Shown here piece by piece: positions 804 through 21,700 of a stretch of DNA of 64,000 bases. Position numbers and translations under genes: made by a program. This DNA is from Cystobasidiomycetes sp. EMM_F5 (Eukaryota). Numbering within the stretch: position 1 is the stretch's first letter; each line of letters begins with the position of its first letter. The notes under the pieces are model-generated. The model was not told where the DNA came from. It ran no database searches and worked only from the letters and a program-made list of their open reading frames with translations. The DNA lies in contig JBPGPT010000027.1 of assembly GCA_051047955.1 (NCBI GenBank), positions 62,001-126,000 on the forward strand. The letters run 5' to 3'.

Positions 804-2169
804 TCACGCCTTGACTTCATTGACGGCATTGTGTGGAGCTTGACCTTCTGAGACGGATAAGAAGCTGGATACGTTTTGCAGAAGCTCCCGCATGACCTCG
901 GCTAGCGTGCCTTCAGTGTTGCTCTGATGACCGAGAATAAGTTAGTACTGAATCACACCCTTTGTGTTGAAATTGACAGACACCAGTATGTGGCTGCAGA
1001 ATAACGTTGTCTGCCTCAAGCAGCCAAGGGTGTACCTTGGGTTCCTGTTCAAAGACATCCAGTCCTGCTCCGCTTAATTGCCCGCTTTTGAGAGCAGCCA
1101 CCAGCGCTTCCTCATCAATGACAGGTCCACGCGCGGTATTCACTACCCGACTGCCCTTCTTGAACATCGCAAACTCTTTTGTTGACAGGAAATGGCGTGT
1201 CGCATCGGACAGCGGGATGTGCACAGACACGACATCGCATTGGCCTAGGAACTCTGATAGTGACTCAACATAAGTTGCGCCAGCTTCGTCTGCTGCAAAT
1301 GTCAGCAACAACATTTGGCAACATGATGTGCGACTTTACCTTGTTCTGGCAGCTTGCGTCGATTGTGGTAGACTATCTTCATGCCGAAAGCTTGTAATTG
1401 TCTAGCGGTGATGCGACCTATGCTTCCCATCCCAAGTATCCCGAGTACGGCGCCCTTTGGATTCAGGCCTTTCGGAACACCTGTGCCCCACTGCCCTCTT
1501 CGCACGTTTCTGTCACCATATATGGTGTTTTTAAGCGTTGTGAGGATCAGAACGGAGGCGGAGTCGGCAGTGGGAATAGACACGGCAGCGGGTGTGTTGC
1601 AGTAGTACACCTTGCCGGCAGATAATGCTTCTGTATCGATGTCTGAAGAGGCACAAGTACAACATGTTAAAGAAAGATAAGAAAAGGTCTGGCAATCGCG
1701 ACACTCACTATCGTATCCAGCTCCACCGCCAGTCAAGAACCGTGCATTAGGCAATGCTTTTGTGAATGCCGCGTCTATCGGCTTGTATTTGTGCAAGAAA
1801 CTGGCGAGGGATACTGTATGACCGCAATGGCGAAACCGGACCCGGTTGACAGCAATCAGGACAATCCAGACATGGAAAGGTATTGGGGATATTTAAATCA
1901 CTCACTGACACCATCTATAGGCCCTTTACTGCTGTCGACGTCGTCAAGCTGCTCGAAAGCCTGATCTCGGCTGGTAGCTTTCGTAGAATCCCAAGTTATG
2001 AAGCTGGCACCCTTGCCTTCCCACTGACGTTGGACTGCCACGTTATTTGAGCATTACTGAGCTTCTTCATGCGTTGAAACCCTGGAATTTCGCTGCGGAG
2101 CTTACAGTCATCCAGCTCGGCTTGAGGGAGCTCCCTCGGGCTGTCGATAACGAGGATATTACGCGGCAT
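804..2169 (-). CDS. D-isomer-specific 2-hydroxyacid dehydrogenase (glyoxylate reductase-like), multi-exon
   Basis: Motifs GILGMGSIG (NAD-binding), VNTARGPVIDE, GAGLDVFEQEP and LQPH. Spliced N-terminus MPRNILVIDS; C-terminus NAVNEVKA*. Confidence 0.9.
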
Positions 2170-2414: not shown

Positions 2415-3809
2415 ATGGCAGTCCTTGCCGCTAGTCGGGAGCTCTCGAATCAAGCTCGAAAAAGGCTCGCAAGACAATCTGAACAGGTTGCAAACGAAAG
2501 AGCCGCAAAGCACAACGATGGGTCGACTACCGCTCATCGCATCGAGGAAATGTACTGGAAAGACCGTACAAAACAGCCAGACTGGTCATTCGCATTCTCG
2601 TCAGACACCGTCCTGAACAATGTGACCTCCGTCGAAAATGTTTCAGATGACATAAGAAATACAGCCCGCTCGCGGAGGGCGTGTTGGACGGACAGACTGG
2701 GTAGAGCGTGGGAATTCTGCTCGTTCCCGCTGTCTGAAGGTAGGGCCGCCGTCACATTTCCTGAAAGGCCGGGTCAGTCTTCGATAGATATGAGTGTCTC
2801 CGCATGCAACTGACAAGCAAGTGTGAAGGCCTGGTATACCTCCCACAATACCTCAGCGTAGAGGACCAGAGAAAGGCCATCATAGGCTGTCTCACAGAGG
2901 CATCAGGACCAGAATCTAGAACCAACCTTGACACTCACTACGTGTCTCCGCCTCACGGGTGGTGGAAAACTTTCTGTGAATCACCTGACCGCGTTCTTCA
3001 ACCCAGAAGTAGTTTTCAAATGAGACCTTGCCGCAGCGAAGTGAGCGAGGGTCCTGCGCAGCTTTCAGAAAGTCGTCGAGTACAGACAGATCTGCCGCCG
3101 GTTGACAATTCAATACATGCACGAGAACTTGCCGACGCGGAAGGGAACGCAAAAAAGGCGGATCCACCAGCAAGCGAGACTGTACGGCCGGCTGCGCTCA
3201 AGGATCTCATACGAAAGCTTCGCTGGACCATTCTTGGGCTGGAATACCATGCAAGTTCGGCAGTCAGTAGCTTGGCAAGTTATACTGACCGAATTCGTAC
3301 AGTGGGGCACAAAGAGCTACAAGTGGAATGCGCAGCCAATGCCGATGCCTAGTACAGTGGTCGATGTCTGCAAGTCAGTCATGTCCGCAATACCGTGGGA
3401 TCAAGTATTTCGAGATAGTCACATCGACATTTCCGTTCGAGAATGGTCGTCGACATACGTTCCCGAAGCAGGTATAGTCAATTTCTACCAATACAAAGAC
3501 GCTCTGACCGCACACGTCGATCAAAGCGAGGTTGACTCGACACGACCGCTCATCTCGGTATCGCTTGGCGAATCTGCCATCTTTCTAGCCGGCGGAGAGT
3601 CTCGTAACGATCGGCCGATTCCCTTTCGGTTGGAAAGCGGAGATGTCATTGTCATGAGTGGTCCGTGCCGACGGGTCTTTCATGGCGTCCCACGTATCAT
3701 CGAGAACAGCATGGATGACAGACTGCTGTCAAACTGGGACGTCGACGATGCAGTCAAGGCTTTCATCAAAGGCACTCGAATGAATATCAATGTTCGACAA
3801 GTCTTCTGA
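2415..3809 (+). CDS. AlkB-family Fe(II)/2-oxoglutarate dioxygenase (ALKBH1-like)
   Basis: KLRWTILGLEYH|WGTKSY, PEAGIVNFY, HVD (HxD), SLGESAIFL, SGDVIVMSG, FHGVPRI, RMNINVRQVF. Introns near 2739-2828 and at 3251-3302. Confidence 0.92.
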
Positions 3810-4568: not shown

Positions 4569-4763
4569 GATGAAGCTGTGGAGTCGTAATGGTGTTTAAT
4601 TGAAAAGCTTCTTCGAGTTTCTTGCATTCTCGTTGCCGCGCCGTGATCGAGTGGTGCGCGGTCATGCTTCTGGATTGAAGAAGTCCAGCTTTTCGCAATA
4701 TTCTTTCCATGAGGCGCTGCCCAATGCCTGCATAGTCTGCTACAAGCTGCCCGTCATTGATGC

Positions 4764-7355
4764 ATGCCGCCAATCGAGTCCCCGAAAAGAGCGGCGGGAC
4801 GGCGTCTCAAGCCAGGTCGAGCCAAAGGACGCGGACGACCCAGGGCCACGAGCTACGAGACGTGTTCGGGGAGCGACAATGACGACGGTGGTCCAAATGG
4901 AGGGTCCGCGAAGGATGCGCCAGTCTCGCAGGTGCCCAGTGCGATACGTACCATCCGGACTTTGAAGCAACCTCGAGCCAGCAACTCAGCGAAACCGACG
5001 AGTTTCTGCGATACTCCCCTCAAGGAGGCTCGCGCACAGTCGACAAACAAGCTGCGCGACGCCTGGGAAGGTATATTTGAGCGATACTCGCGCGGCGACC
5101 ATCTGGCAAGTGGTCGGGACGACATCTACGACTTTGAAACGGGCGAGGTATGGCATGATGCTGGCTTCCTCGATGACATGCTCGATGACGGCGATGATGA
5201 GGTCGCCCAACTTGGAGAGAATGCCTCGAGTAACGAGATATCCATTGGCTTTTTCGGATTGCCCGGTGCGATGGGTCAGGACGATGACAGTCTGGAGAGC
5301 GATACAGACGATGATAGTCCAGAGGATGACAAGCCGCGCTCGTGTAGCCGCATCGATGACTTTGAGATGCCATCCGACGCTTCTAGCGAAGACGAACTCG
5401 GGCAATGGGTAGGCGATATCCTCCCGCCCGTCAGTCAAGAGTACAAGCAGGCAAAGCGCGCAAAGAGCGAGCTAGCGGAGGATCTTCGGCAATTCCTATC
5501 TCTGGACAAGTCGGAGTCTCGAGCTCTCGTTGAGCTTGAAGCGCTCAAGCGCGAAAGTCTACACCCTGCTGCGAGCAAGCCAAGGCTGCTCAAGGAGGAA
5601 TCCGTTCGACCTATATCTCGTTCTTCTCCAAACCCTCTTATTCGTCAAGCTTCGACTTCTTTTCGGCATTCTCCCTGCCCCTTCGGATTGAAACCAACCT
5701 TGCGTGTTTCATCATCAGCCAGGTCCTCGCCTTTTCCATCTCCTATGTATTCGTATTCGCCTGTATCGAGATCTCCATTCTCTATCTCTGCATCCAAGCC
5801 GTCAAGTGCCGGTAGCTCCACTTCGTACTCGACTACAGGGCATGGCATAACTGCCAACGTCAAGCTGGACGGCGGTAATGCCATTCTGCCTCAGGCGATG
5901 GCAAATGACGATTCTTCGGACGACGACTGTACGCTCGTTTCGGAAAACTTGTCATCACACGACGTCTTTGGCAGTGGTTTAAACATCATCCGCTCCACAT
6001 CGCTCGCGAACGCTGCCGCTACTTTGAAGCGGGAAAAACCCGTAGAATTGGCGCATGATGCAAGGGTCGTGTCCTTATACACCTCACACCCTCCGCTCCT
6101 TCCCGAGAATATGCGTAACGACTCATACAACGACCGTTCTGTTTACAGTGCGAACCACACGAATAACCTTGCGCGCATTGCACAGTCCACCGATCTTAAA
6201 ATCAAGCGCAAGACAGTCATAGAGGTAGTCATCCCTCGTAGATCAGTGTCCGTGTCAGAACTTTCCCGTACTCGATATCAACCAAGTTTAGGGCCGACGC
6301 CCGCTCGCCCTTCTCATGCGCTAAAACAAAAGGCAACTACGCACGACGTATTCTCATCTATACCCAGAATTAACAGAAATGACACTGTTCCGCGACGTCC
6401 ATCGCCACTTAAGATCTCCACCCAAGCTTCCTCCTATCATTGGCCTACTCCGCCTCCCAGTATCGACGATGGACAAACTGAGCCGTTTGCATCTACTTCC
6501 TTCGTGCCAGCGCAGCCCGAAAAAGCCAATTCAATTGCAGATAGTGTGTCAGAGGCAGAGGACACTGCAATCGTACCGTCCAATATGGCTGTAACGCCGC
6601 CGAAGCCGCCCTTATCACCACTCTCCAAACAAACACGACTGCGGCCAACAATTTCGAGATTCTTGACGCCATCTTCGGAAGTGCATCTGTCCTCACCTTC
6701 GGTTATGCCATATCGCGTTGCCTCGAGCAGACCGGCAGTAGAATCGGTGCAGCATGAGAGGCAACCTTGGCAATTCTCGCTAAAGCCATCGCATACGACG
6801 ACAAAGCCGACAACATGGTCTGATGTTGGTTTGCCTACGCCGCCACCGAGTCAGGCGTCTACCTCGTCAAAAAGCGCTTCTCCCGAGCGTGCAATCCTGA
6901 AAGCTCCACACTACCGCATTCCCGGGCACTTAAGCCATACAGCTAGCAGACTTGAAGAGGAAGCAAGAGAGATTTTCAAGTCGCCAAAGAAGGTGACGGT
7001 GGAGAAGAGGCCTGTGCACCCGAGTCCGGGAAAACGGAAACGGCGGTCCGTTACTCCAGATGTCGATGACTACACAGGCGACACAGACGATGAACTCATG
7101 TTTACGCGTCCACCCGAAAGCATGAAGTCGATCTTGTTGGATTCTACGCCGTCTCGGCCGACTGAAGCTACACCTGTTGCTACCGTCAGCGCACCGCACC
7201 ATCGGCCTCGTATACGATGCGATAGCGTAGTGCGGAGCAGGAGCGTCAGTGTCAGCCCGTACGTGCGGAGAGCGGGCAGCGTTTTTGTGAAAAGACCGAC
7301 TGTTGCCCCGCCGGATAATAGCGGTGACGAGTCTGATGACCCGCTGGGAATGTAG
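4764..7355 (+). CDS. SCM3: Scm3/HJURP-like CENP-A chaperone-domain protein with a long Ser/Pro-rich tail
   Basis: ARAQSTNKLRDAWEGIFERYSR...DDIYDFETGEVWHDAGFL (about 5025-5175) matches the Scm3 consensus (LK..FE.IFEKY...DEIDL.TGEIV.DNGHL). Single 863-aa ORF. Confidence 0.65.
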   Translation: MPPIESPKRAAGRRLKPGRAKGRGRPRATSYETCSGSDNDDGGPNGGSAKDAPVSQVPSAIRTIRTLKQPRASNSAKPTSFCDTPLKEARAQSTNKLRDAWEGIFERYSRGDHLASGRDDIYDFETGEVWHDAGFLDDMLDDGDDEVAQLGENASSNEISIGFFGLPGAMGQDDDSLESDTDDDSPEDDKPRSCSRIDDFEMPSDASSEDELGQWVGDILPPVSQEYKQAKRAKSELAEDLRQFLSLDKSESRALVELEALKRESLHPAASKPRLLKEESVRPISRSSPNPLIRQASTSFRHSPCPFGLKPTLRVSSSARSSPFPSPMYSYSPVSRSPFSISASKPSSAGSSTSYSTTGHGITANVKLDGGNAILPQAMANDDSSDDDCTLVSENLSSHDVFGSGLNIIRSTSLANAAATLKREKPVELAHDARVVSLYTSHPPLLPENMRNDSYNDRSVYSANHTNNLARIAQSTDLKIKRKTVIEVVIPRRSVSVSELSRTRYQPSLGPTPARPSHALKQKATTHDVFSSIPRINRNDTVPRRPSPLKISTQASSYHWPTPPPSIDDGQTEPFASTSFVPAQPEKANSIADSVSEAEDTAIVPSNMAVTPPKPPLSPLSKQTRLRPTISRFLTPSSEVHLSSPSVMPYRVASSRPAVESVQHERQPWQFSLKPSHTTTKPTTWSDVGLPTPPPSQASTSSKSASPERAILKAPHYRIPGHLSHTASRLEEEAREIFKSPKKVTVEKRPVHPSPGKRKRRSVTPDVDDYTGDTDDELMFTRPPESMKSILLDSTPSRPTEATPVATVSAPHHRPRIRCDSVVRSRSVSVSPYVRRAGSVFVKRPTVAPPDNSGDESDDPLGM

Positions 7356-7722
7356 AGGGTAGAAGTGTGTAGCAGGGTCGTTGATAGCCGTAGTTTTCAA
7401 TGTTGTCGTAGCATTACATATGATTTGCGGGACAAAAGGATCTTCAAGTTGTTTGGTGATTATGAAGCCGCAACATGACCTTGCCTTTATGCCAGCTGGA
7501 CTGCAAACTGCTGGACCATGACCGTAGCCTTCCTTGCGACGATGCTGCTCCACTACGACGCACTCTGACCTGGGCTGACAATCTCCGACGGGCACTGTAC
7601 GCGCTGAAACGGTAAACAAACATCAATATCGCGCATAAAGCAGCAGCGGCTGTTCAGCAACGGGGCAGCACAAGGCTCAAGTTACTCATAATTTGGTATT
7701 TGAGCATACAAGAATCCCAGAT

Positions 7723-10700
7723 ATGCCCGGTCGCAAGTTCTACGCCGTCGCAGCAGGTCGAGAGGGTCCCCGGATCTATTCTGAATGGTGGGCAGTTTAT
7801 AGGTAGAAGTACACAAAGCGGGCTAAGGTTGATCCTACCTTCTTCGTTCCGACGCAAAACAGGACTCAGTGCGAGAAGGCCGTCATTGGCTTTCCCAATG
7901 CTGCATACAAGAGTTTCGCCTCGTTGCCCGAAGCCGAAGCATACATGCAGAATCCGCCGCCTCGCTCTTGTAGGGTAACATGACAACGGTCTGAGAAATG
8001 CCGTCTGACTTGATAACGCTGCCGCAGCTCCAGTAGTAAACCCCAGATACTACGCCGTCCGAGTAAAGCCGCGTGGAGAAAATCAGATATTTAGAACATG
8101 GTAATTTATATGCACTATGCACTGAAACACAAGCCACATCTAATTGTACAAATTCCATGATATACGATGGCGCTGTCGCCTACAGGTCTGAAACGCAGGC
8201 TTTCATGGAAGCGAATAGATGCTATACCAACAAGGCCTTTGCAACGGAGGAAGAAGCTCGCGATTGGCTGCTCCGTAGTACACAGCACGCTTTGGAAACG
8301 CAGACATCTCGTTCATCCCTCTCCCGCGAAGGATGCATGAATGGTCAAATGTCCATCTCTCGGCAGGCTTCATTGGACAATTTGTCTTCTGGCAGCACAC
8401 CCCCTTTCGAGCTGTCTTCAAACAAAGAAAACACGATCCAATCTTCCATGCTATTGTCGCAGAACGAGTGCGACGCGCAACTTGATAGTCGGCATTCTCC
8501 GTATCCAAGTGGCAGCTCGTCTGCCGCGTCATCAACGAGCAACCAAAACAAACGAAAGCAAGCGCCGAGCTCTTTTTCTAGACCTTCTCGACCTTCTCGC
8601 CCAAATTACTTCAAGCCCAGCACTTATCATTCAGCCCATGCTTTCGTTGAAAGCCCAGCTCCACAACGCCCTGCCTTTGTCTCCGCTTCACAAATGCTAG
8701 AAAGTGCCCGCCCTATAGCATCAACGTCTCAACCGGGATTCCTGCCCAGCTCGTCAGGATCACAAGAGGACCCGGTAAACCTGCTGAGCTCCGACGCGGA
8801 CATGGAAGAGGTAATCAAACCAACATTTTCTGACTTGTACAACCACGACTCGTTGGCACCAAAACTCAATAATACAAAACGCGCCTTTGGGCCGAATGAG
8901 GATTGCATACCCTTAGACTTTGCACCCGTTGCCAGTACCTCAACTCTATCACCTTGCGCCGCTCAAGTACCAGAAGCACCGGCTGGACCACCTTTGTCTG
9001 CAGAGCAAACGCGAATCCTAGATCGAGTCATGAGGGGCGAGAGCATATTCTTCACAGGCTCAGCTGGAGTTGGCAAATCAGTCCTTACGCGAGCTATCAT
9101 CGCCGCAATGCGGGCAAAGTACCCTGGTAAAAACACTGTCGCCGTTACTGCCACTACCGGTATCGCTGCGACAAATATCGAAGGATGCACCCTCCATTCA
9201 TGGGCTGGTGTCGGTCTCGGCAAAGGTCCGGTTGAAAAGCTCTACTGGCCTATCATCAAGGCGAAAGGTTTAAATGAGAAAAAGGCGAGATGGCAGCAAT
9301 GTCAGGTACTCATTATTGATGAGGTGTCCATGCTCGATGGCAAGTTCTTCGATGTGAGTGCCACATTCCAGGCCGAGTATTACATAAGGTAGCTGACGTC
9401 CGCGTGCCGTAACAACTCGACGAGCAGAAGTTGGAAACGATTGCCAGAATGGTGCGTCAGAATTCGGCTCCTTTCGGCGGCATCCAGCTTGGTACGTACT
9501 CCATTGAGTCACGTCGTGCGGGACTGATCATTTCCCGCATCAGTCATTACGGGCGACTTCTTTCAACTCCCGCCCGTTCCTGACTACAGTGGTCCAGGAC
9601 AGCCGAAAATCCCCATTACCTTCGCCTTCAATGCCAATACATGGAACACCTGCATCCAACATACCGCCGTTCTGAAACAGTGGGCTTCCTCCGCTTCATA
9701 CTTGTGACGCGAAGGCTGACGAGTTACTTACAGAGTCTACCGACAAAAGGATCAAAGTAAGGATATATCACCCTCCTAAAATGGAAAAGGCTGAGCGTAG
9801 CTTCGTATTAGCATTCGTAAACTTATTGAACGAGCTGCGCGCTGGCAGGCTCAGCCCGCTAGCCATCAAGACCTTCGGCTCTCTTGCTCGACCCGTCAAG
9901 TACGAAGATGAGATTGAACCCACATGTTTGTATCCGAAGCGAGATCAAGTAGCTCAAAGAAATGCTATGCGCTTAACGAAACTGCCCGGCAACGAAGTCA
10001 TTTATACTTCGACCGATAATTCCGGTCGGGATCCGGAGACTGGTCAGCATTATTATCCTGAAGACGAGAGACTCACAAAGTTTCTCAATTCCGTATGTAC
10101 TGCAAGATCTGCGAGTTATGCAGTTTAGGCTAATTTGAGAATGCAGAACACGCTTGTCGAGCGAAGTATGACGTTAAAGGTTGGAGCGCAAGTCATGCTC
10201 GTCAAGAATCTGACAATGGGTCACGTGAATGGTACGCTAGGCAAAGTTCTTGGCTTTGCGTCTGGTCAGGATATTCGCGCTGCCCGCTTGGCGTTCAGTC
10301 AGGGTAGTATTCAAGAGAACGTACCACAATCAGTCGCTGCGAAGCCGGATGAAGCTTCTCATACTCATGATGCAGTCCTGCGCGACCTCGAGAACGATCT
10401 CACTGTAAAGTCCGAGGAAGGCGTCAATGCTATGTTACCTGCGCCAGCTGTTAAGACCGAAGTGGTCGAACAACAATCAACTCCCGTCAAGCACGAGCGG
10501 GGTGATGCCGAGTCTTATATGCCGGAACAAATTACTCCTGCCAGCAATCCAGCCAAGGCTGTAGAGGCACCTGTAGAGGCACCAGCACAACACCCGATAG
10601 CTGAACATCTCGTCAACATTCGGGTGGGACAAGCCAAGCTTACTGAACGCGAAAAGCGGGCTCGAAACATGGATGAGGGCGACGATGACGAGTATGAGGA

Positions 10701-11184
10701 GAATGTTCCTCCTGGACATTGGCCAGTCGTGCAATTCAAGAATGGCAGAACGGTACTTCTGCCAAAGATGGATTTTGAGGTCCAGAATAGCGCGGGCGTC
10801 ACAGAAGCTTGTCGTCAACAAGTGCCGCTGATTTTGGCTTGGGCGTGAGGCGGTACTGTGTAGAATCCGTGAACTACGCTTACATGATTTCGGTGGACAG
10901 GCTGTCTATACACAAATCGCAGGGTCAAACGCTCGAGCGGGTCAAGGTGGATATGGGTGAGATTTTCGAAGCGGGACAGGGTTATGTCGCTTTATCTCGA
11001 GCTACGCGACTGGAAAGCCTCCAAGTCATCCGCTTTCGGCCGGAAAAGTATGTTACCTGATAATTTAGAGATTAGGATGTCTTGCTGATGACACATACGC
11101 GATTTTACCAGGATTAGAGTCAGCCCGGTCGTAGTCAAATGGTACCAGGGTATTCTCAACGCTGCCAAAGCAGAGACCCAGTAA
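7723..11184 (+). CDS. PIF1: Pif1-family 5'-3' DNA helicase with two N-terminal RNase H1-type hybrid-binding (Cauli_VI) domains
   Basis: Helicase motifs [69 protein letters not shown] and GQGYVALSR. 5' exons 7723-7787, 7863-7969, 8028-8100 and 8186 onward splice in frame. Confidence 0.93.
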
Positions 11185-11700: not shown

Positions 11701-14700
11701 ATGAGCGTCAGCAAAGGTGACTATCGACGCAGAGACGACCATGCCGTCTCGTCGTCGGGATCCGATGGAGGGCGGGCTGGAGCTGCGCTCGAGGACCGCG
11801 ATGATTCCTGGCGCCGCAATATGAATGAAGCCTCGAGCAACTACAATAAACGCAACGACAGCTACGCATCGTCGTCGACTTATAATCCATCACCGGCCCC
11901 TTCGAATCCTCGGGGGAATCACTCGACGGGACCCGCGGATTATCACTCGCGGTACGATTCTGGGCGAGGCAGCGAAGACGCCAGCATGCCACGCAGCGAC
12001 TACACAAACAGCAGGCACGACGCTAGTATGGCGGTCGAGGAGGGCAGCAGGTTCCGCTCGCACTCTGGGCAATCGAATCCTGCGTCTCGACACGACCGGC
12101 CTACTGGACGAGCAGATTATGATAAATTCGCAAAGCAGCGAGCGCCTCCGTCCGATACAGTGCGAACAAAAGACTATAGGACCGGTGACCGGAGGTCGCG
12201 AGATGAACGGCAAGATGCAAACTCCTACGCCCGATCCGACGACGGCAGCTACCGAGATCCTGGCCGCCCCGCTGAGCGAGATCGTACTCATCGAGATGAG
12301 GACGACGCGGACAACCGCAGAGAGAACGACGGCACTTGGCAGAGCAAACGTCCTAGATTAGATGAGTCAACATCGTCGTCGTCATCTATGCAGCAGCCTA
12401 CATCATCAGTGTGCGTGTATGCAATGAAGATTTGCCCCCTTCGTTTGCTGGCCTTTCAACTTGATTGTTGACTCTTGCTGATAACAACATGTTGTTTCTT
12501 TCCCATCTCGTATGCGTCCTCCCGCATTTTGTATTTTCCCTTTCCCGTTTCTTAGGCAAAGCGATCAGCAAAATCTAGCGGCATCCTCCGCTTCGGCGGC
12601 AAGCAAGAGCAAAGGTGTATATGAGAGGCCTCCGACACGAGACCGCCCTTCTCAAACTGCCACGAGCAAGATTTTACCCCCTATACGCCACGCGCTGCCA
12701 GAAAGGCCGGTCACGGGGTACGCGGATACCCGTCCTAGCCGTGATCCTTTACCGGAGCGAACGCGACAATCCAGATCTCCTCCTCCTCACCGGGGGCGAT
12801 CGCGATCCCCGTCGCCCAAGTTTTACAGAAACGGCTCATCAAGGCGGAGTCCCTCCCCAGCGCCGCCGAGCAATAACAAAGATTTAAGTAGAAAAGCAAC
12901 TTTCAAGAAGCCATGGTTTGCCAAAGGCAATGATAGTCCGCGACGGGACGCGGAAGACCGCTACTCTCGGCAAAACACGCGCAGAGAACGATCTCGTTCG
13001 AGGTCTCGGTCAAGATCACCAGTATATGCTCGAGACAGGTTCTCGCGCGACCAGGCGCCCCACCGTCGCGGCAGAAGCAGGACCCGAAGTCCTAGTCCAC
13101 CTCGCCATGTTCAAGCCAGGTACCGCGATCGTTCGCCAGTACACACCTCGCGTCACGAGCAGCAAGGACGATACTCTGCACACGACCAGCGCCGAAGAGA
13201 GCCCTCCCCTAGTGAATATGATCCGAGAGATGCCGGGCGTTCGAGAAATCAAGCTACCGCGCCATCGTCTTTCACACCAAGTTCACGCGACCAAGCGAGA
13301 TCTTCGTTCGATGCCGCCTCAACTGCCTTACCGCGAGCGCCTCTTACAGTGTCACTGCCTACTCCTGCTGAACTTGATGCTCACATCTACGATCCTCGCC
13401 GTCCGCGCACAGACCCTTTCTACCCTCCACCCGCGGCAAGTTCCACCTCCCAACAATCGCCGCAGGTTGCGCAGTCAAGTGAGCCTTTCTTTCCTCCTCC
13501 TCCTAGCTTCTTCGCCCTTCCTCCAGCAGTACAGCAAGAACGGCCGCTTATTCCGCTACCACCACCGGCTGTATTGCTGAATGCCGCCCTACAATCACAG
13601 CAAGAACCCAGGCTGATGAGTATCGGTATACGAGCACTACCTCCTGGTCCGAATGCTGCCAACACCACTGCAAAGAAAGGCTTCCGGCCAGTTGCAGCAA
13701 CGTCGCCACAGGCCGGCGCCATGTCACCTCCGACTACGCAGTCAGAACAGCTGAGACGCTTCTTCCCTGCGGACGATGAAATGTCACCGCCTGGTGCCGT
13801 CACTAACGGTAGATCATACGGGCCGAACGACGAGCAGTATAGTCCACAAAGCCGCACAACGCCTTCTTTGCCCCCGACGCCTCAGCAACTCATGGCACAT
13901 GTGCAGCAACAGATGCAAAGTCAATCTCAATCTCCATACCAGCAGCAACAACAGCAACAATTTGGCTCTGCAGAGCCCACATCCCCGCCTTATCAGCCTA
14001 CAAATCCGTCTATTCAGCGAGACGTGGTGGTTCAGCCACAGCCACATCAGCCGCAATCTGTTCGACCTGTCAAACTATCTCAAGCTCCCCTTCATCCGAG
14101 ACTCGTTCTATCTGCATCGTCTGGCTCATCCGCTGGTATTGCTAAACTACCGCCAAAGCCGACCTTTACAAAGTTGCCAGCATCCCTACCGCCAAAGCCA
14201 ACTTTTTCCGCATCTCATTCAAGCACTTCACAACCTGGCAGTAACCCAGCATCGCCTGGGAAGCGCAGTGTGCCAAATACTCCCATATCCGCAACTGTAC
14301 CGCCGATCCGCGATGTACACCCCTCGCCTAAGCGCCTGATACCCGAGGAAAGGATCGCCATCCCTTTGCCAGCAAGACCTACGCCTGCGCCTACTCGCCC
14401 TGAAAGCGGACTTCAACCAGCCTTCGAGAGTGTCAAGCGGGAAGTCAGCCAGTCTGCAGACGAAGTTGCTACGCCGGAAGACACGCAGTGGGCAAATTGG
14501 ACATCGTCGATTTCTGTGGCTCCCGAATGGACGGCTCTGGAAACTCCCAAGCAGGAGATTTTGCCTGCCCCAGCGCAAGAAAGGGACTTAAGCGAAAAGG
14601 CGGTCGAGGAGCCCAAAGGTGCTGAAACAACGACTCAGGCGGCTGTTGTCGTAGCACCGACGGCTACAGTACACATTCCGAAGGCACGTTTCAGCGAGTT

Positions 14701-15912
14701 GTATGAACGGCTGGCACAAGTTGGCGAAGGTACCTACGGCAAAGTATACAAGGCTCGCGATCATTCTACGGGCGGACTTGTTGCCATGAAGCGGATCCGA
14801 ATGGAGGCAGAGAAGGATGGCTTTCCGGTCACTGCCATACGAGAGATTAAGCTTCTTCAAAGTTTGGACCACCCAAATGTAGTCAAACTCATGGAAATGA
14901 TGGTATCGAAAGGTAGGAAGCTCTATCGAATTGGGTTCTCGTTTCCTTACTTATTGTGCACCTCTGTCGTAGGCCATGTATACATGGTTTTCGAGTATGC
15001 TGATCACGATCTCACGGGTATACTACACCATCCGAACGTAAACTTCTCGCCGGCCAATCTCAAGTCTCTTATGCTGCAATTATTACAAGGTCTTGACTAC
15101 ATACATTGGCGTGGTGTACTGCATCGCGACTTGAAGGGATCAAACATCTTATTGTCAAAGTATGGTGATCTCAAGCTGGCAGATTTCGGCTTGGCCAAGT
15201 TTTATGCCAAAGGGAAGAGAAACGATTACACAAATCGCGTCATCACGCAGTGGTATAAGCCTCCGGAGTTACTGTTCGGCGCAACCGCATACGGACCGGA
15301 AGTTGACATGTGGAGCGCAGGGTAAATTCGTTATAGTCGACAGCCATCCCCTTGAAGCTAACCACTTGTATGTGGCAGTTGCATTTTTCTTGAGCTCTTC
15401 ACACGTAGACCTATTTTCCAAGGTCTCGACGAGATACATCAACTTGACACAATCTACAAGTACATGGGCACCCCATCGGAGGAGACTTGGCCAGAACTTA
15501 CAGAATTGCCATGGTACGAGCTTGTGAAGCCAGCGAAGGAAATACCGTCCGTTTTCAGAGAGACGTTCTCCGCGTACGTGTTTTTCGTACGTAATGGCGG
15601 AAAGAAGAAACTGACGCTTGCTCGGCTTTTAGTGAATACCTCAAAACGGAAGCAGGCCTAGACTTGGCAGAGGCTTTGCTATCCTTCAATCCAGCTAAGA
15701 GACCTACAGCCTATGAAGCGACCCAACTACCTTACTTCACGAGTGAGTTGCCTCAAGCTGAGAAACCGACATGGCTTCAGACCACCATTAAGGGAGATTG
15801 GCACGAAATGGAGAGTAAAGAGGCTTCTCGGAAAAAGGGAAGAGAGATGCGCAAGCAGCAGCAGGCAGCCACCGCGGCGGCGGCAGCAGCAGCAGCAGGG
15901 ACAAAGCAGTGA
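11701..15912 (+). CDS. CTK1: CTK1/Lsk1/CDK12-like RNA polymerase II CTD kinase with a long RS/Pro-rich N-terminus
   Basis: GEGTYGKVYKA, EKDGFPVTAIREIKLL, HRDLKGSN, ADFGLA, DYTNRVIT and a C-terminal GDWHEME motif; RS repeats in the N-terminus. Confidence 0.88.
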
Positions 15913-16043: not shown

Positions 16044-18294
16044 CTATAGCTTGCTATCGCGAGCTTTATTGGCGAGTGAGCTACGCTTGGAGAAGTAGTG
16101 CTCGACTTCACCAGGTTCGCTACCGATGCTCGGAGCGCCCTCCTGACGTTCGTCGATTGGTACATAAGGGCGTTCCGCTGCTCCTATATATACTTGTCGT
16201 GGACGCCAGATCTTGACGCCTGCTGGATTAAGACACATTTGACGCCAATGACTGAGCCATCCCACAACCCGTCCAATAGTGACTGCAACAAGTCGTCAGA
16301 TGCGTTGCGACAGAAAAACCGAATTAACACTTGCATAAGACAGGATAGTAATCGGGAGGCTATGTTATCAAGAGCGTTAGTCCCGCGAAGGAAATACTGC
16401 AGTGAACGCAACCCACAAAGCCAAGAGACTGGTATATCAAGCCTGCCGGAAATTTCATTCAGCTTGAGCCGTGATGCAAGTGAAACTGTGGACACACCGC
16501 TCCAGAAGTCCACATTCGGATACAAACGGCGCTTGACAAAGTACTCGTCCTTTAGAGCTTCGTCGTGAAGCCGACGAGCTGTCGCGAGTAGTGGATTTGT
16601 GCCGGTGATTGCGAATACCTTCCAAAAGCAGTCTGTGAGCGCACAATATCGCTTATATCGGGGAAGTCGTACCTCTTCTGCCGTCTTTCTGATGATGAAC
16701 GATCTAGGGTCGCTTGTGCGGTAGATTCGGTGTCCAAAACCACTCAAGACCTTTTCCTTCTTTTTGACTTTTTCAATGTACTCTAGAACGTTATCAGGCG
16801 AGCCGATGTCCAAAAGCATTCGAAGGGAGGCTTCGGCAGCCCCTCCATGAATTGGCCCGTATAGTGCTGCGCATCCTGCTGCAATCGCTGAGTAGGGATC
16901 GACCAGAGAGCTGCCAACTTGAAGTACGCTCGCAGCACTGCAATTCATTTCGTGATCGGCTGGCGACCACACAGCATTTGCAGCACGCGATTAGGAAGAA
17001 GAATGTACCATTTACATCAGTTGTGGGAACTTAGAAGCCCTATAACAAACTAAATTGACATACCATGAAGAATGAGTAGGACGTCCAAGGCTTTCACAAT
17101 TACGGGGTGCGGCTTGTAATTGCTCTCTCCTAGGTGGTCCAGCATGTAGAGGAAGCTCTCCGAGTAGCCCATCCCAGGCTTTGGCGTGTTAAATTCGCGT
17201 CCTTGGCGGAGACGATATGCCATCCTGCGTCAGAGCATTGAGATTAGCTTTCATCAGTGCAGGACTCAAGAGCAAGCATAAGGCTGCGTACGCCGCCAGA
17301 GTAATTGTCTTTCCTATCAGACGGAAGATTTGCTATGCCAAAATATCAGATTTTTAAGATGAGTGTAGATGTGGCCACTGCTACCTTGTCCATGACAGCT
17401 AGGGCTGCTTTATCTCCACTGGCAGCTTTAGTGTACAGTGATTGACCCTGCAACGAAGGATTCGCCTATAGCGCAGCCAACTTTGAGCGGAAACTTAGAA
17501 TCTGAGCAGGAAGCGTGCTTACTTCTGGAGCAAAGGCCCCTAGCGCAGCGAAGCCGCTAATCATCACCGACATTGGATGAGCATTGTATCTGAATGCCGA
17601 GACCAGCCTGCTGATATCGGTATGCACGATGGTGTGCGAATTCACTTCCGAGTCGAACCGCGCAAACTGCTTCTTTGTCGGCAGAGAACCGTAGAGGAGC
17701 AAGTAAGAGACCTCGAGGAAGCTGCTCTTCTCTGCCAATTGTTCGATGGGATAGCCTCTGCCGATTTAAAGCACACCCTTTAGCTGAATACACAATGTCT
17801 GGCACTTCCCTAGCGCGGACTCACCGATATCTCAGGATACCTCTCTCGCCATCAATGAAGGCTGTGAATAATAGACACAGTAGACGAATGGTTCAGATTA
17901 GCATAGGATTCGCTGCGTGTACGGCAACAATGACAACGTACTGATTGTACTTCGCAAGACTGCGGTGTTCTGGAAGCCAGAGTCAAACACTCGCAGGCCA
18001 TTATCGCATTCATCTTCTTCGCGTTCATCTGGTCCAGGAGCTGCTTTGAGGTCCTTGAAGGCTGTAGCGGGGATGGAATTGTTGACGATGGGAACTTTGA
18101 TGGCCTTGCCTGTCCGGTTCTGTCGCACCAATACCGTCAGCTGTCATATCTTTAATCCCAGACTAGCTGCGGCTCTTGATCCAAATGACCCAGTGCCCGG
18201 GATCCTGGCTGTTCAAACGCACGTCAATAATCGTCAGGCTCTGTTCTTTTGCGCCGTCCTTTGGCAGGACGCCTTCATCAACTGTTCTGCCCAT
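16044..18294 (-). CDS. Peroxisomal citrate synthase (bacterial-like subtype)
   Basis: LTIID|NRTG, DSGFQNTAV, SFLEVSYLLLYG, AHPM, DHEMNCS, LYGPIHGGA, GFGHRIY, LYPNVDFWSG and KIWRPRQVY; ends in -DSKL* (PTS1). Confidence 0.93.
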
Positions 18295-18729: not shown

Positions 18730-21700
18730 TCAGAGACGAGGCGAAGAATTGAACCTGCTAGTTGATCCGATACTGGCGCGAGGAAGAGCCTCGCCGCTTG
18801 CGAGGTTAAGTTCACGGCGTCGAGCAGCCTTGTCCAAAAGCGACTTGATATCCTTTGCAGAGATGGGCTTGCACAGCACATGATCGACTCCAGCCGTGAT
18901 GTAGGCCATCTGATCGCTCTTGAGTGCATTACCAGTCGCTCCCACTACAAAGTCATTTCGGCCAGCTGCGCGCAGGACCCTGATGGCTTGTTCTCCCGTC
19001 ATGACCGGCATGGCATTGTCGAGAGTGACAATGTCAAAATATTGCGGTGGCGTACTGGTCGTCACCTCACCATCACTTGGACTTTGGCTGCCTTCGCTGC
19101 CGAGAAGGATATCGAGGAACATCTGCCCATTCTCAGCTTCCTGGACTGTACAGCCTAACCTTGCCATCATACGGCTCATGAGTTTTCGGGTCAGCGGATC
19201 GTCGTCGACAATGAGCGCTGCGAGTAGAGGTCGGTCGCTTGATGTCAGGGCAGGCGATTGCGCTTTACCGGCGGAAGAAGCCGTATTGGGTCGGTCGGAC
19301 TTGGATGTCAAGACTTCGGCAATCGGATCAGTACCTTCGTCCACTCCGGCAAGCGGCGTACCCCTTGAAGGCGAATCGTTCTTCTTGTGCGCTGCTGCAG
19401 CGGCTTCGCTGAAGGAGCCGTACTTTCGCAAATCTGTGCGAGTGGCAGGAGTGAACGCTTCTTCGCCGACTGGCGAAGCGACAGGAAGGTTCGCTGTCGA
19501 TGTAGCAGAATCGACCCCCATGCCAGGAGGAGGAAGATCGACGTGTGACGGGTGAGGTTGCGAGTGATAGGTTCCTTGTGGCGAGTGTGGGGGATGGAAA
19601 TATTGCGATGAGAGCGGTCCTGACGCACTGCGAGTAGACCTGCCACTGCCTACTGACAGTGGTGGGCTTGGGTGAGGGGAATGGTGTCGAGATTGACTCC
19701 TCGCTGAAGCCAGAGCCGTGACTGAAGACGTGGGCGGAGTAGCTGATGTCAAAGTCATTGCCGGCAAGACACTGCGGTCAGTCGCATTGGGAGTTGTCCA
19801 ATTTTCGGAAGTGAACGGCGAGCAAACATCCAATGCAGACGTCGAAGCCGTCGGGGCAGTCGACGTTGTTGAGACTTTACGTAGTGGTTCCGCTGCTGTC
19901 CCAGTCGGTGTTGCTCGTCTGGCAGGCAACTGACCCAGCGCATTGACTTGCCCGGCCGAAGCGACCACGGCTGCGTGATGGGAGCCAGAAGCGTCCGAAA
20001 AGGCACGATCGCGCTCCGCTAGGGGCGTGACAGGGTGACTTCGTGAGCTGACAGCTTCATGTCGTGAAGCCGAGTATTGTGAGTAGGAACTTTCGCCCTC
20101 TTTGTATGGCTTGATGGGCGGTCGAGTAGGGCGAAGACTGCTCGGGGCAGACATTGGCGTTTGCGGTTCCTGTAAGGCCTGCACTTCGGCTTGAGTCGCT
20201 ATGGGGTATCTAAACTCAAGCCAGAAGGTAGATCCATTGCAATTGGACTTTACACCTAATCTACCTTGAGCGAGCTGTACGATTGCTCGAACGATAGCCA
20301 GCCCAAGGCCAGAGCCCTTCCCACCCTGTACTCGACCGACTTCAGTCTGCACATACGGCGAGAAGAGGCGGAAGTCCACCATATCGCTCGGTCTGATACC
20401 CGGACCGGAGTCTGATATTTCGATCCGAACAATTACGCAGTCCCGCGCCTGACCGCCGTTGCCTTGGCCTGATGAGCTGCTGCTATCGCTCGAATGCATC
20501 CTGTTGCCCAGCTGCGGCGAGAGAATATTGTGACCCTTGTTCGGTCCGCCACCGGCAGAGCGCGACGAAGTACCTCGCCTCGACAGCAGTGGTGCCTGTA
20601 TCTTTTCGGAGAGTGATGGGTTCGTAAGGCCCTTCTCGAGATCAGGCTGTTGACCAGAGACCGAAGGAAGTCGTTGGTTAAGCGGGCGAGAAGACGGCAT
20701 TGGGGTAGAAGTACGAATCGATGCAGCGACGGTAGTCTCTGTAGGTGGGTACTTCCCTAGCTTCAACTCATCTGGCGTAATCTCGTCGTCCCTCCACTTA
20801 GTGCTTTCAGAAAGGTGTGTTTTGTCAGTTTCGTTGCTAGTCGAGTCTCGCTGCGATGTGCGGGTACGATCATCGAGTAAAATCTCCTCCTTCTCCGAAA
20901 TTTCCTTCTTCTCGCTCTCCAATGCCGAAATTTCTGTAATTTTGCCTTCGTGGTCAATCAGGGTAGAATTGAGAGTCTGAGCGGTGCTATTTGGCCAGAT
21001 CAACTTGGTCGTTACGCTGACTCCCTCTCGCCCAGATCTACAGAACTTGACAGCGTTACTAGCAATGTTTGTGAGCACCTGCCTCAGCCGAATCTCGTCG
21101 CCAATCACAAAGGTAGCTTTTCCTCCCATGTATTCTACAGATTGCGGAAGAGAATCGATTCGCTCATCGAGCGAAACGTTGAGCTGGATCTTTTTTGCCG
21201 TCGTAGCGACTTTGAGACCTGCGATGAGGGCGTTGATTGCGCGGTGGAAGTGGAATGGTTGTGTCGATGATTCGAATCTTCCGGCGTCCATGCGCTGTAG
21301 ACTATAAATCGATCTCAAATCAGTACATACACCTCACCCCAATTGGAGAGCCGTCCACATACTCTAGCACATCGTTCAGTACCTGCTGCACCTGTTGAAG
21401 CGAGCTTTCTAAGGCATAAACTTCGACCATCTGATCTTCATCGCGATGATTAAACGAGTCGGAGGCTTGCAGATTCTGAAACGCAAGGTATGCCGTATTG
21501 AGCGGTACGCGGACCTCGTGAAATATGTAGGATATAAACTTCTTTTTCGAATTATTGGCTCGCTTTTCCGCAATCTGAGCCTTTTGCTGTGCGCGGTAGG
21601 AAATCTTGAGTTGAGTTCGCAGAGTGTACATTCTCCTGTCCACCTTTTCGTGATTGTAGTGAAGGTACTGCACAAACATGCTGAATAAAAGGTAAATGAT

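What the first reader, a model, noticed from the sequence alone, without database searches (positions are those of the whole stretch)
7723..11184. Pif1 helicase fused to two tandem RNase H1-type RNA:DNA hybrid-binding domains: candidate R-loop-targeted helicase
Seen: three small exons absent from the ORF track splice in frame into the Pif1 ORF. They give [50 protein letters not shown] and [48 protein letters not shown]. Established: FYAV..G..P.IY..W..C...V.G...A.YKSF....EA..Y is the N-terminal hybrid-binding domain of eukaryotic RNase H1 (Cauli_VI), and Pif1 helicases unwind RNA:DNA hybrids and G4 DNA. The well-studied yeast and human Pif1/Rrm3/Pfh1 lack this domain. No RNase H catalytic domain is visible here. 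Inference: the hybrid-recognition module directs an unwinding enzyme, rather than a nuclease, to R-loops, telomerase hybrids or Okazaki primers. Similar fusions may already be annotated in other basidiomycetes, but I know of no functional characterisation.
Basis: partly seen in the sequence, partly recalled or inferred. Interest (0 to 1): 0.8.

Follow-up and report, generated by a model that had tools for sequence, protein, structure and literature searches.

The report
Pif1 helicase with RNA:DNA-hybrid-binding domains
This fungal gene encodes a Pif1-type DNA helicase that carries at its front one clear and one weaker copy of the small domain RNase H1 uses to grip RNA:DNA hybrids; the one-copy design is already annotated, but apparently unstudied, in many mushroom-forming and yeast-like basidiomycetes.

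Summary
An 11-exon, 944-aa gene (7723-11184, + strand, ten GT-AG introns of 52-85 nt) joins three small 5' exons in frame to a Pif1 helicase ORF.

- **First domain:** exons 1 and 2 match complementary halves of Pfam Cauli_VI, the RNase H1 hybrid-binding domain (HBD). Joined, they score 62 bits on my own profile.
- **Second domain:** it is divergent. Its halves get no Pfam hit, but joined it scores 17.6 bits, against 3.9 for the best decoy and 0 of 2000 shuffles.
- **Shared intron site:** both copies are interrupted inside the conserved Trp codon, which suggests a tandem duplication.
- **Transcript evidence:** no RNA run was listed, so splicing rests on comparison with relatives.
- **Not new as a design:** Cauli_VI+PIF1 is annotated in Agaricomycetes and Tremellomycetes, and four environmental fungal contigs carry it.
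- **Separate lineage:** these genes form a clade apart from the canonical basidiomycete Pif1.
- **Two copies:** only this gene showed a second HBD.
- **Function:** hybrid or R-loop targeting is a plausible inference, untested here. Six literature searches found no study of the fusion.

The parts
7723..7787 (+). Exon 1: start codon and the N-terminal half of HBD1. Ends with TG of the split Trp codon.
   Evidence: Pfam Cauli_VI profile positions 1-15, 19.1 bits. It is the first in-frame ATG after the stop at 7636-7638. The 'MP..KFYAV' start matches the consensus of alignment A2.
7863..7969 (+). Exon 2: C-terminal half of HBD1 (to about 7947) and the start of the 13-aa inter-domain linker.
   Evidence: Pfam Cauli_VI positions 19-44, 32.6 bits against a cut-off of 21. 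Its only PDB hits are the RNase H1 HBDs 3bsu_A and 1qhk_A, both weak at E about 1.
7735..7947 (+). HBD1 (aa 5-50), interrupted by intron 1 (7788-7862) inside the conserved Trp codon.
   Evidence: The joined sequence scores 62.2 bits on my own profile of 14 Pif1-linked HBDs, with the window left out of the profile. It is 46% identical to the N-terminal HBD of P0013 across the junction.
8028..8100 (+). Exon 3: rest of the linker and the N-terminal half of HBD2. Ends with TG of a split Trp codon.
   Evidence: No Pfam hit on its own.
8045..8270 (+). HBD2 (aa 64-110), a divergent second copy, interrupted by intron 3 (8101-8185) at the same codon and phase as HBD1.
   Evidence: My own profile gives 17.6 bits over profile positions 1-46, i-E 5e-5 in 251 sequences. 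The best decoy scored 3.9 bits in 812,340 residues, and 0 of 2000 shuffles of the segment reached 17.6 (maximum 10.4). HBD1 against HBD2 scores 37, reached by 13 of 2000 shuffles.
8186..9353 (+). Exon 4: C-terminal half of HBD2, a 241-aa Ser/Pro-rich linker (8271-8993) and the start of the helicase core with motifs I, Ia and II.
   Evidence: It is one uninterrupted reading frame. PIF1 PF05970 scores 74.2 bits at aa 270-389 of this exon. Linker composition is S 20%, P 11%.
8994..11184 (+). Pif1 helicase core (aa 352-944) on exons 4-11: 9428-9491, 9544-9679, 9734-9756, 9812-10092, 10147-10844, 10901-11047, 11112-11184.
   Evidence: Motifs I (GSAGVGKS), Ia, II (DEVSM), the Pif1 signature (DKLE...PFGGIQ), III, IV, V and VI are all present. 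Pif1_2B_dom scores 35.3 bits. Alignments to P0013 and others run across the junctions of introns 4-10.
10258..10719 (+). Insert of about 154 aa, rich in Ala, Glu and Val, within or after the 2B domain.
   Evidence: There is a gap in the alignments to most relatives between aa 678 and 815-831. The A1 consensus is variable at the same place.

Best explanation
The locus is an intact chromosomal gene for a 944-aa Pif1-family (SF1B) DNA helicase. It belongs to a basidiomycete (Agaricomycotina) paralogue lineage that carries the RNase H1-type hybrid-binding domain at its N-terminus. Shown here: the exon structure, one clear HBD (aa 5-50), a second divergent HBD (aa 64-110), a long Ser/Pro-rich linker, a complete set of helicase motifs, and the same HBD-linker-helicase order in annotated relatives. 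The second HBD most likely arose by tandem duplication of the first together with its intron. Inferred: the HBDs bind RNA:DNA hybrid duplex and, through the flexible linker, hold the helicase at hybrid-containing sites. Such sites include R-loops, RNA primers and telomerase RNA-DNA hybrids. There the motor loads on single-stranded DNA and strips off the RNA without cutting it. Two HBDs would raise avidity.
For: Gene model: 11 exons, 10 GT-AG introns, no internal stop. The rare donor GTGGGC of intron 1 recurs in intron 6, whose splice is confirmed by the conserved ...VYRQKD motif. HBD1: complementary Pfam halves and 62.2 bits when joined. HBD2: 17.6 bits with clean decoy and shuffle controls. 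Its second half is in the same ORF as helicase motifs I-II. Both HBD introns are phase 2 in the Trp codon. Colinearity: model aa 1-50 aligns to the N-terminal HBDs of P0013, P0055 and P0050, which also align over the helicase. Relatives: 3 of 103 'longer' hits carry PF01693+PF05970 (confirmed). Of the 150 best representatives, 16 carry an HBD by my own profile. Pfam confirms Cauli_VI in 17 of the 21 candidates scanned. Named species span Agaricomycetes and Tremellomycetes. Genomic contigs L003, L008, L009 and L034 encode HBD-Pif1 genes whose HBD is also split by an intron near the Trp. Residues: by the alignment to 3bsu_A, the Trp matching human W43 and the Lys matching K59 are kept; in HBD2 they are also kept. 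W43A and KK59/60AA abolish hybrid binding of the human HBD, and three HBDs in tandem make a working hybrid sensor (PMC10639055, passages). Context: ordinary genes flank it, Scm3 upstream and a protein kinase downstream, and no flanking repeats were found.
Against: There is no transcript evidence. No protein structure of the window's HBDs could be predicted, because spliced sequence cannot be handed to the folding tool. The halves of HBD2 have no Pfam hit. None of the other 19 HBD-bearing relatives shows a second copy. The residue matching human K60 is Ser in HBD1 and Ala in HBD2. The intron position in the window (inside the Trp codon) is 7 nt away from the position in 5 of 6 environmental copies, which is phase 0 two codons later. 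The introns are therefore near each other but not identical. Ceratobasidium relatives have a degenerate N-terminal HBD without the Trp or Lys, so the domain can be dispensed with in some lineages. Hybrid binding and targeting are not tested.
Confidence: 0.65

Rival explanations
1. Only HBD1 is a working hybrid-binding domain. The 'second HBD' is a decayed duplicate or part of the linker with no binding function.
For: Neither half has a Pfam hit. It scores only 17.6 bits against 62.2 for HBD1. The Gly-rich turn is altered and there is a one-residue insertion (alignment). No relative has two copies. The linker and HBD2 region found only the window's own ORF among proteins of 213-681 aa, and no hit of the 'longer' search covered it.
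Against: The profile match covers all 46 positions. It keeps YAV, the Trp, K-x-F and the EEA..WL helix. Decoy and shuffle controls are clean. The reading frame is kept open and the intron site is preserved.
Confidence: 0.3
2. The HBDs serve another purpose than hybrid targeting, for example dsRNA binding, a protein partner, or regulation of the helicase.
For: The residue matching K60 is not basic in either copy. The abstract of PMC3750045, seen only in the listing, reports that protein P32 binds human RNase H1 through the HBD.
Against: The Trp and the first Lys that are needed for hybrid binding in the human domain are kept. From recall, Pif1 helicases are known to act on RNA:DNA hybrids.
Confidence: 0.2
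3. Exons 1-3 are not part of the helicase mRNA. They would be a separate small gene, or present only in a minor isoform, and the helicase would start at an internal Met (aa 89, 133, 137...).
For: No RNA data were available. Several in-frame Met codons lie downstream. An ORF caller that does not splice called only a 395-aa protein here (P0254).
Against: The second half of HBD2 is in the helicase ORF itself. HBD and helicase are colinear in 17 Pfam-confirmed relatives and in 4 genomic contigs. The start matches the family consensus MP..KFYAV. The next gene upstream (Scm3) ends at 7355.
Confidence: 0.08
4. The gene is the helicase of a Helitron or another mobile element rather than a cellular gene.
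For: The subfamily occurs in local pairs or arrays elsewhere. A captured gene with pfam01693 lies inside Pleurotus helitrons (PMC4289320, passage).
Against: No Rep or Helitron_like_N domain was hit in the exon translations scanned. The Pif1 signature motif and 2B domain are present. It is up to 51% identical to other Pif1-family proteins over the kept columns (48% to the Neolecta Pif1). It is a single copy in 64 kb among ordinary genes, without flanking repeats.
Confidence: 0.03

Closest known systems
Annotated basidiomycete proteins with PF01693 (Cauli_VI) + PF05970 (PIF1), such as P0013 (Phanerochaete sordida), P0109 and P0055 (Abortiporus biennis), P0114 (Grifola frondosa) and P0157 (Kwoniella newhampshirensis)
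   Same: They share the order N-terminal HBD, linker, Pif1 core with 2B domain. They fall in the same clade (95*). They are 42-46% identical in HBD1 and about 44-47% in the core.
   Different: They show one HBD, not two. Their linkers are much shorter: the helicase starts near aa 150-240, against 352 here. No functional study was found.
Canonical Pif1 helicases (S. pombe Pfh1, S. cerevisiae Pif1 and Rrm3, human PIF1)
   Same: They share the helicase motifs I-VI, the Pif1 signature motif and the 2B domain. From recall, they have 5'-3' polarity and activity on RNA:DNA hybrids and G4 DNA.
   Different: Pfh1 and the yeast hits carry no PF01693; that ScPif1, Rrm3 and human PIF1 lack it is recalled. 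Basidiomycetes have a separate canonical clade, with P0026 (Mycena), P0067 and P0069 (Kwoniella) and P0062, supported at 96*. The window's gene is not in it.
Eukaryotic RNase H1 (human HBD structure 3BSU; yeast N-terminal domain 1QHK)
   Same: It has the same small N-terminal hybrid-binding domain, followed by a flexible linker and an enzyme that acts on hybrids. From recall, yeast RNase H1 also has two HBD copies.
   Different: The effector is a helicase, not the RNase H nuclease domain. No PF00075 hit was found in the exons scanned.
RHINO, an engineered sensor made of three tandem human HBDs (PMC10639055)
   Same: It uses tandem HBD copies joined by linkers to bind hybrids in cells (passages).
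   Different: It is artificial, has identical copies and carries no enzyme. Here the two copies are natural, divergent and attached to a motor.

Membership tests
Pif1 family (SF1B helicase) | Pfam PIF1 (PF05970) and Pif1_2B_dom (PF21530) above the gathering score | tested here: met
   PIF1 scores 74.2 bits against 25.9 on exon 4 alone. Pif1_2B_dom scores 35.3 against 23.9 on exon 9.
Pif1 family (SF1B helicase) | Helicase motifs I, Ia, II, III, IV, V, VI and the Pif1 signature motif between II and III (motif definitions recalled) | tested here: met
   All were found by pattern in the spliced model: [58 protein letters not shown].
Pif1 family (SF1B helicase) | ATP-dependent 5'-3' unwinding | not testable with these tools
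   This needs a biochemical assay.
Canonical Pif1 orthologue group (Pfh1/Pif1 of Dikarya) | Groups with the canonical basidiomycete and ascomycete Pif1 in a tree | tested here: not met
   The window's gene lies in a separate 25-row clade (95*) with the HBD-bearing proteins. The canonical basidiomycete clade (96*) and the ascomycete clade (99*) are apart. Deeper branching is unresolved.
RNase H1 hybrid-binding domain (Pfam Cauli_VI, PF01693): copy 1 | Match to PF01693 above the gathering score | tested here: met
   Exon 2 alone scores 32.6 bits against 21, at profile positions 19-44. Exon 1 scores 19.1 bits at positions 1-15. The joined sequence could be scored only with my own profile, at 62.2 bits.
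RNase H1 hybrid-binding domain: copy 1 | Residues matching human W43 and K59/K60, which are needed for hybrid binding (PMC10639055, passages) | tested here: inconclusive
   The Trp and the first Lys are kept. The second Lys is Ser, as in the family consensus HKSF.
RNase H1 hybrid-binding domain: copy 2 | Match to PF01693 | tested here: inconclusive
   The halves give no Pfam hit. The joined sequence could not be given to Pfam. My own profile gives 17.6 bits with full-length coverage and clean controls.
RNase H1 hybrid-binding domain: both copies | Three-stranded sheet plus two helices fold; preferential binding of RNA:DNA hybrid | not tested
   The spliced sequence cannot be handed to the folding tool, and binding needs an experiment.
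RNase H1 enzyme | RNase H catalytic domain (PF00075) | tested here: not met
   No hit at E up to 10 in any of the seven exon or ORF translations scanned. Exons 5-7 and 11 are short and were not scanned separately.
Helitron RepHel | Rep / Helitron_like_N domain N-terminal to the helicase | tested here: not met
   No such hit was found. The region before the helicase is the HBDs plus a Ser/Pro-rich linker. Helitron termini were not searched for.

The most novel reading that the evidence does not exclude
Agaricomycotina keep, beside their canonical Pif1, a second Pif1 paralogue built as a non-nucleolytic counterpart of RNase H1. Its HBD finds RNA:DNA hybrids and a tethered helicase peels the RNA off intact. 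The family is prone to local duplication, with pairs and arrays in several genomes. In this lineage the HBD itself was doubled, intron included, to raise avidity. If so, fungi offer a natural 'R-loop helicase' whose targeting module can be removed or swapped to test how hybrids are chosen for unwinding rather than degradation.
Probability: 0.3. Interest if true: 0.7.

Novelty: new variant of a known kind. Interest (0 to 1): 0.5.

Why it matters
R-loop removal is usually split between nucleases (RNase H1/H2) and helicases that have no known hybrid-recognition module. A natural fusion of the RNase H1 hybrid-binding domain to a Pif1 motor would show how a helicase can be aimed at hybrids. It would also give a simple genetic handle, deleting or mutating the HBD, for separating the hybrid-related roles of Pif1 from its other roles. 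The design is present in database annotations across basidiomycetes, but six literature searches found no study of it. The value therefore lies in pointing to an unstudied family and to this two-copy variant, not in a new invention.

Tried and rejected
- **RNA evidence:** The look-up of sequencing runs listed no RNA holder.
- **Own genome:** no whole genome is held for this window. I could not ask whether the organism also has a canonical Pif1 or an RNase H1.
- **Region search with P0013 residues 1-60:** it found only P0013 itself.
- **Search with the linker and HBD2 region of exon 4:** among proteins of 213-681 aa it found only the window's own ORF, P0254. No close relative with a similar linker is in the collection.
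- **Protein Atlas, by features:** no usable hit. By structure, only low-TM matches (0.30-0.38) of P0013's N-terminus to Cauli_VI-bearing RNase H clusters.
- **Pfam scan of all 150 representatives:** Only 21 candidates picked by my own profile were scanned, so the other 132 rest on my own profile alone.
- **First metagenome scan, with exon 4:** no relative found.
- **Other reading frames:** the antisense ORF 7654-8049 and the ORF 6930-7622 (-) have no Pfam family and were set aside as chance frames.
- **DNA-level repeats:** none was reported between the two HBD-coding segments, so the duplication is old.
- **Cymbomonas P0019:** it joined the window's row in the IQ-TREE run (support 92, branch length 1.28). 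I treated this as a long-branch effect.
- **Earlier findings:** look-ups by sequence and by place returned nothing.
Full report
**Observation**

- An ATG at 7723 is the first in-frame Met after a stop at 7636-7638.
- It opens a 65-nt exon that ends with TG. Intron 7788-7862 (GTGGGC...CAG) leads to exon 7863-7969. Intron 7970-8027 (GTAGGG...CAG) leads to exon 8028-8100, which again ends with TG. Intron 8101-8185 (GTAATT...CAG) leads into the long ORF that holds the Pif1 helicase.
- Listing every frame-keeping GT..AG pair leaves little freedom. Intron 1 has two options; the alternative puts five extra residues into the domain. Intron 2 has three acceptors (8027, 8033, 8036), all in a linker. Intron 3 has one option.

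**Gene model**

- Following conserved helicase motifs through the rest of the gene gives 11 exons and 10 GT-AG introns of 52-85 nt. The product is 944 aa with no internal stop and ends at 11184.
- Alignments to database Pif1 proteins run across the junctions of introns 4-10.
- The unusual donor of intron 1, GTGGGC, is used again by intron 6. That splice restores the conserved ...VYRQKD motif.
- All helicase motifs and the Pif1 signature motif are intact. PIF1 and Pif1_2B_dom pass Pfam's cut-offs on single exons.
- Between the N-terminal domains and the core lies a 241-aa Ser/Pro-rich linker. An Ala/Glu-rich insert of about 154 aa sits at or after the 2B domain.

**First hybrid-binding domain**

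- Exon 1 (21 aa) matches Pfam Cauli_VI positions 1-15 at 19.1 bits. Exon 2 (35 aa) matches positions 19-44 at 32.6 bits, against a gathering score of 21. Two neighbouring exons carrying complementary halves of a 44-position profile is not chance.
- The only PDB sequences that exon 2 touches are the HBDs of human (3bsu_A) and yeast (1qhk_A) RNase H1, weakly (E about 1) but in register.
- Spliced inside a script, aa 5-50 score 62.2 bits on a profile I built from 14 HBDs of other Pif1 proteins, with the window excluded. They are 42-46% identical to the N-terminal HBDs of P0013, P0055 and P0050.
- By the register, the split-codon Trp matches human W43 and the Lys of 'YKSF' matches K59. K60 is Ser, as in the consensus of the Pif1-linked HBDs.
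- W43A and KK59/60AA abolish hybrid binding of the human domain (PMC10639055, passages).

**Second domain**

- The halves alone get no Pfam hit, even at E 10. I could not give the joined sequence to Pfam or to the folding tool.
- On my own profile, aa 64-110 score 17.6 bits over all 46 positions, with i-E 5e-5 in 251 sequences.
- Controls are clean. The best of 1004 reversed or shuffled decoys (812,340 residues) scored 3.9 bits. None of 2000 shuffles of the segment reached 17.6; the maximum was 10.4. HBD1 against HBD2 scores 37 (BLOSUM62, local), reached by 13 of 2000 shuffles.
- It keeps YAV, the Trp, K-x-F and the EEA..WL helix.
- Both copies are interrupted at phase 2 inside the Trp codon, which fits a tandem duplication that included the intron. 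No DNA-level repeat remains, so the duplication would be old.
- I rate the second copy as real but divergent. Whether it still binds is open.

**Are the 5' exons part of the helicase gene?**

No RNA run was listed, so this rests on comparison.
- The C-terminal half of HBD2 lies in the same uninterrupted ORF as helicase motifs I-II.
- The order HBD, linker, helicase is found in annotated proteins. PF01693+PF05970 occurs in 3 of 103 hits of the 'longer' search, confirmed with positions.
- Of the 150 best representatives of a phmmer search with P0013, my own profile finds an HBD in 16.
- Pfam confirms Cauli_VI in 17 of the 21 candidates scanned: 18 representatives plus the 3 earlier proteins. The other 132 representatives were not scanned by Pfam.
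- The family start 'MP.....KFYAV' matches MPGRKFYAV here.
- Genomic contigs from metagenomes (L003, L008, L009, L034) encode HBD-Pif1 genes whose HBD is also split by an intron.
- In 5 of their 6 copies the best-scoring join is phase 0 two codons after the Trp, 7 nt from the window's site. The introns are close but not identical, and the joins were chosen by profile score.
- The upstream gene (Scm3 domain, 4761-7355) ends 367 nt before the ATG.

**Distribution and paralogy**

- The named HBD-bearing proteins come from Agaricomycetes (Abortiporus, Grifola, Phlebia, Phanerochaete, Volvariella, Mycena, Marasmius, Ephemerocybe).
- They also come from Tremellomycetes (Kwoniella, two Cryptococcus sp., a Tremellales sp.).
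- In a FastTree of 247 rows, the window's gene falls in a clade of 25 rows (support 95), 19 of which carry an HBD. Left out were one window fragment and three fused two-helicase models.
- Its sister group holds Rhizoctonia and Ceratobasidium proteins; together they form a set of 34 rows (support 98).
- An IQ-TREE quick run on 44 named rows of the 251 gives the same clade (95). It also gives a separate canonical basidiomycete clade with Mycena P0026, Kwoniella P0067 and P0069 and Sporobolomyces P0062 (96), and an ascomycete clade with Pfh1 (99). Deeper order is unresolved.
- Mycena citricolor has one protein of each type. So this is a second Pif1 lineage, not the canonical orthologue.
- None of the other 19 HBD-bearing proteins has two copies.
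- The subfamily is often locally duplicated:
  - L008 and L034 each carry two head-to-tail genes, and L003 and L009 carry divergent pairs.
  - The window itself holds one copy.

**Mechanism**

- Shown: the parts and their order.
- Inferred: the HBDs bind hybrid duplex. The long flexible linker lets the motor load on nearby single-stranded DNA and displace the RNA, without cleavage.
- This rests on the known role of the HBD in RNase H1 and on Pif1's activity on hybrids, both recalled. It also rests on the residues kept.
- Tandem HBDs increasing avidity is plausible from the engineered three-HBD sensor (PMC10639055, passages). From recall, yeast RNase H1 also has two copies.

**Rivals**

- The second copy may be inert.
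- The HBD may bind something else.
- The 5' exons may be absent from the main transcript.
- The gene may belong to a Helitron. A pfam01693 gene lies inside Pleurotus helitrons (PMC4289320, passage). Here, however, no Rep domain was hit, the core is a typical Pif1, the neighbours are ordinary genes and there are no flanking repeats.

**Novelty**

- Six full-text searches found no paper on an HBD-Pif1 fusion. Subscription journals are not covered by that library.
- This window adds the second HBD copy, the separation from canonical Pif1, and the local arrays.

**Limits**

There is no transcript data, no own genome and no structure of the spliced N-terminus. My profile was built only from Pif1-linked HBDs.

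Noticed in passing
window 4761-7355 (+): The gene just upstream is an 864-aa stop-to-stop ORF, rich in Ser and Pro, with a Scm3 (centromere protein Scm3/HJURP) domain (40.1 bits). It ends 367 nt before the helicase's start codon.
   Followed up: partly
L008 1791-7254; L034 506-6029; L003 255-5113; L009 326-4132: Environmental fungal contigs carry two Pif1 genes of this subfamily side by side. In L008 and L034 they are head-to-tail and both have HBD exons. In L003 and L009 they are divergent. The family seems prone to local duplication.
   Followed up: partly
P0121 residues 6-51; P0006 residues 9-51 (Ceratobasidium): The N-termini look like a decayed HBD (11.3 and 4.9 bits on my profile). They lack the conserved Trp and Lys. 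The domain may be degenerating in Ceratobasidiaceae.
   Followed up: partly
window 10258-10719 (+): An insert of about 154 aa, rich in Ala, Glu and Val, lies at or after the 2B domain. It is absent from most relatives aligned. The same place is variable in the family.
   Followed up: no
P0005, P0006, P0063 (Ceratobasidium, Rhizoctonia): These annotated proteins contain two PIF1 helicase stretches each. They are probably two neighbouring genes merged by gene prediction.
   Followed up: no
window 12485-15325 (+), 16184-16990 (-), 18730-21333 (-), 3045-3809 (+), 1302-1892 (-): The neighbouring ORFs carry ordinary domains: protein kinase, citrate synthase, histidine kinase plus response regulator, 2OG-Fe(II) oxygenase and 2-hydroxyacid dehydrogenase. 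There is no sign of a mobile element.
   Followed up: partly
P0019 (Cymbomonas) in the tree: A green-algal Pif1 with an HRDC domain joined the window's row with support 92 on a long branch (1.28). This is probably an artefact.
   Followed up: no
PMC4289320, section on retrotransposon/viral genes: Pleurotus ostreatus helitrons carry a captured gene (capE) with the pfam01693 domain next to Pif1-like RepHel helicases (passage). This is an independent pairing of the two domain types in a basidiomycete.
   Followed up: no
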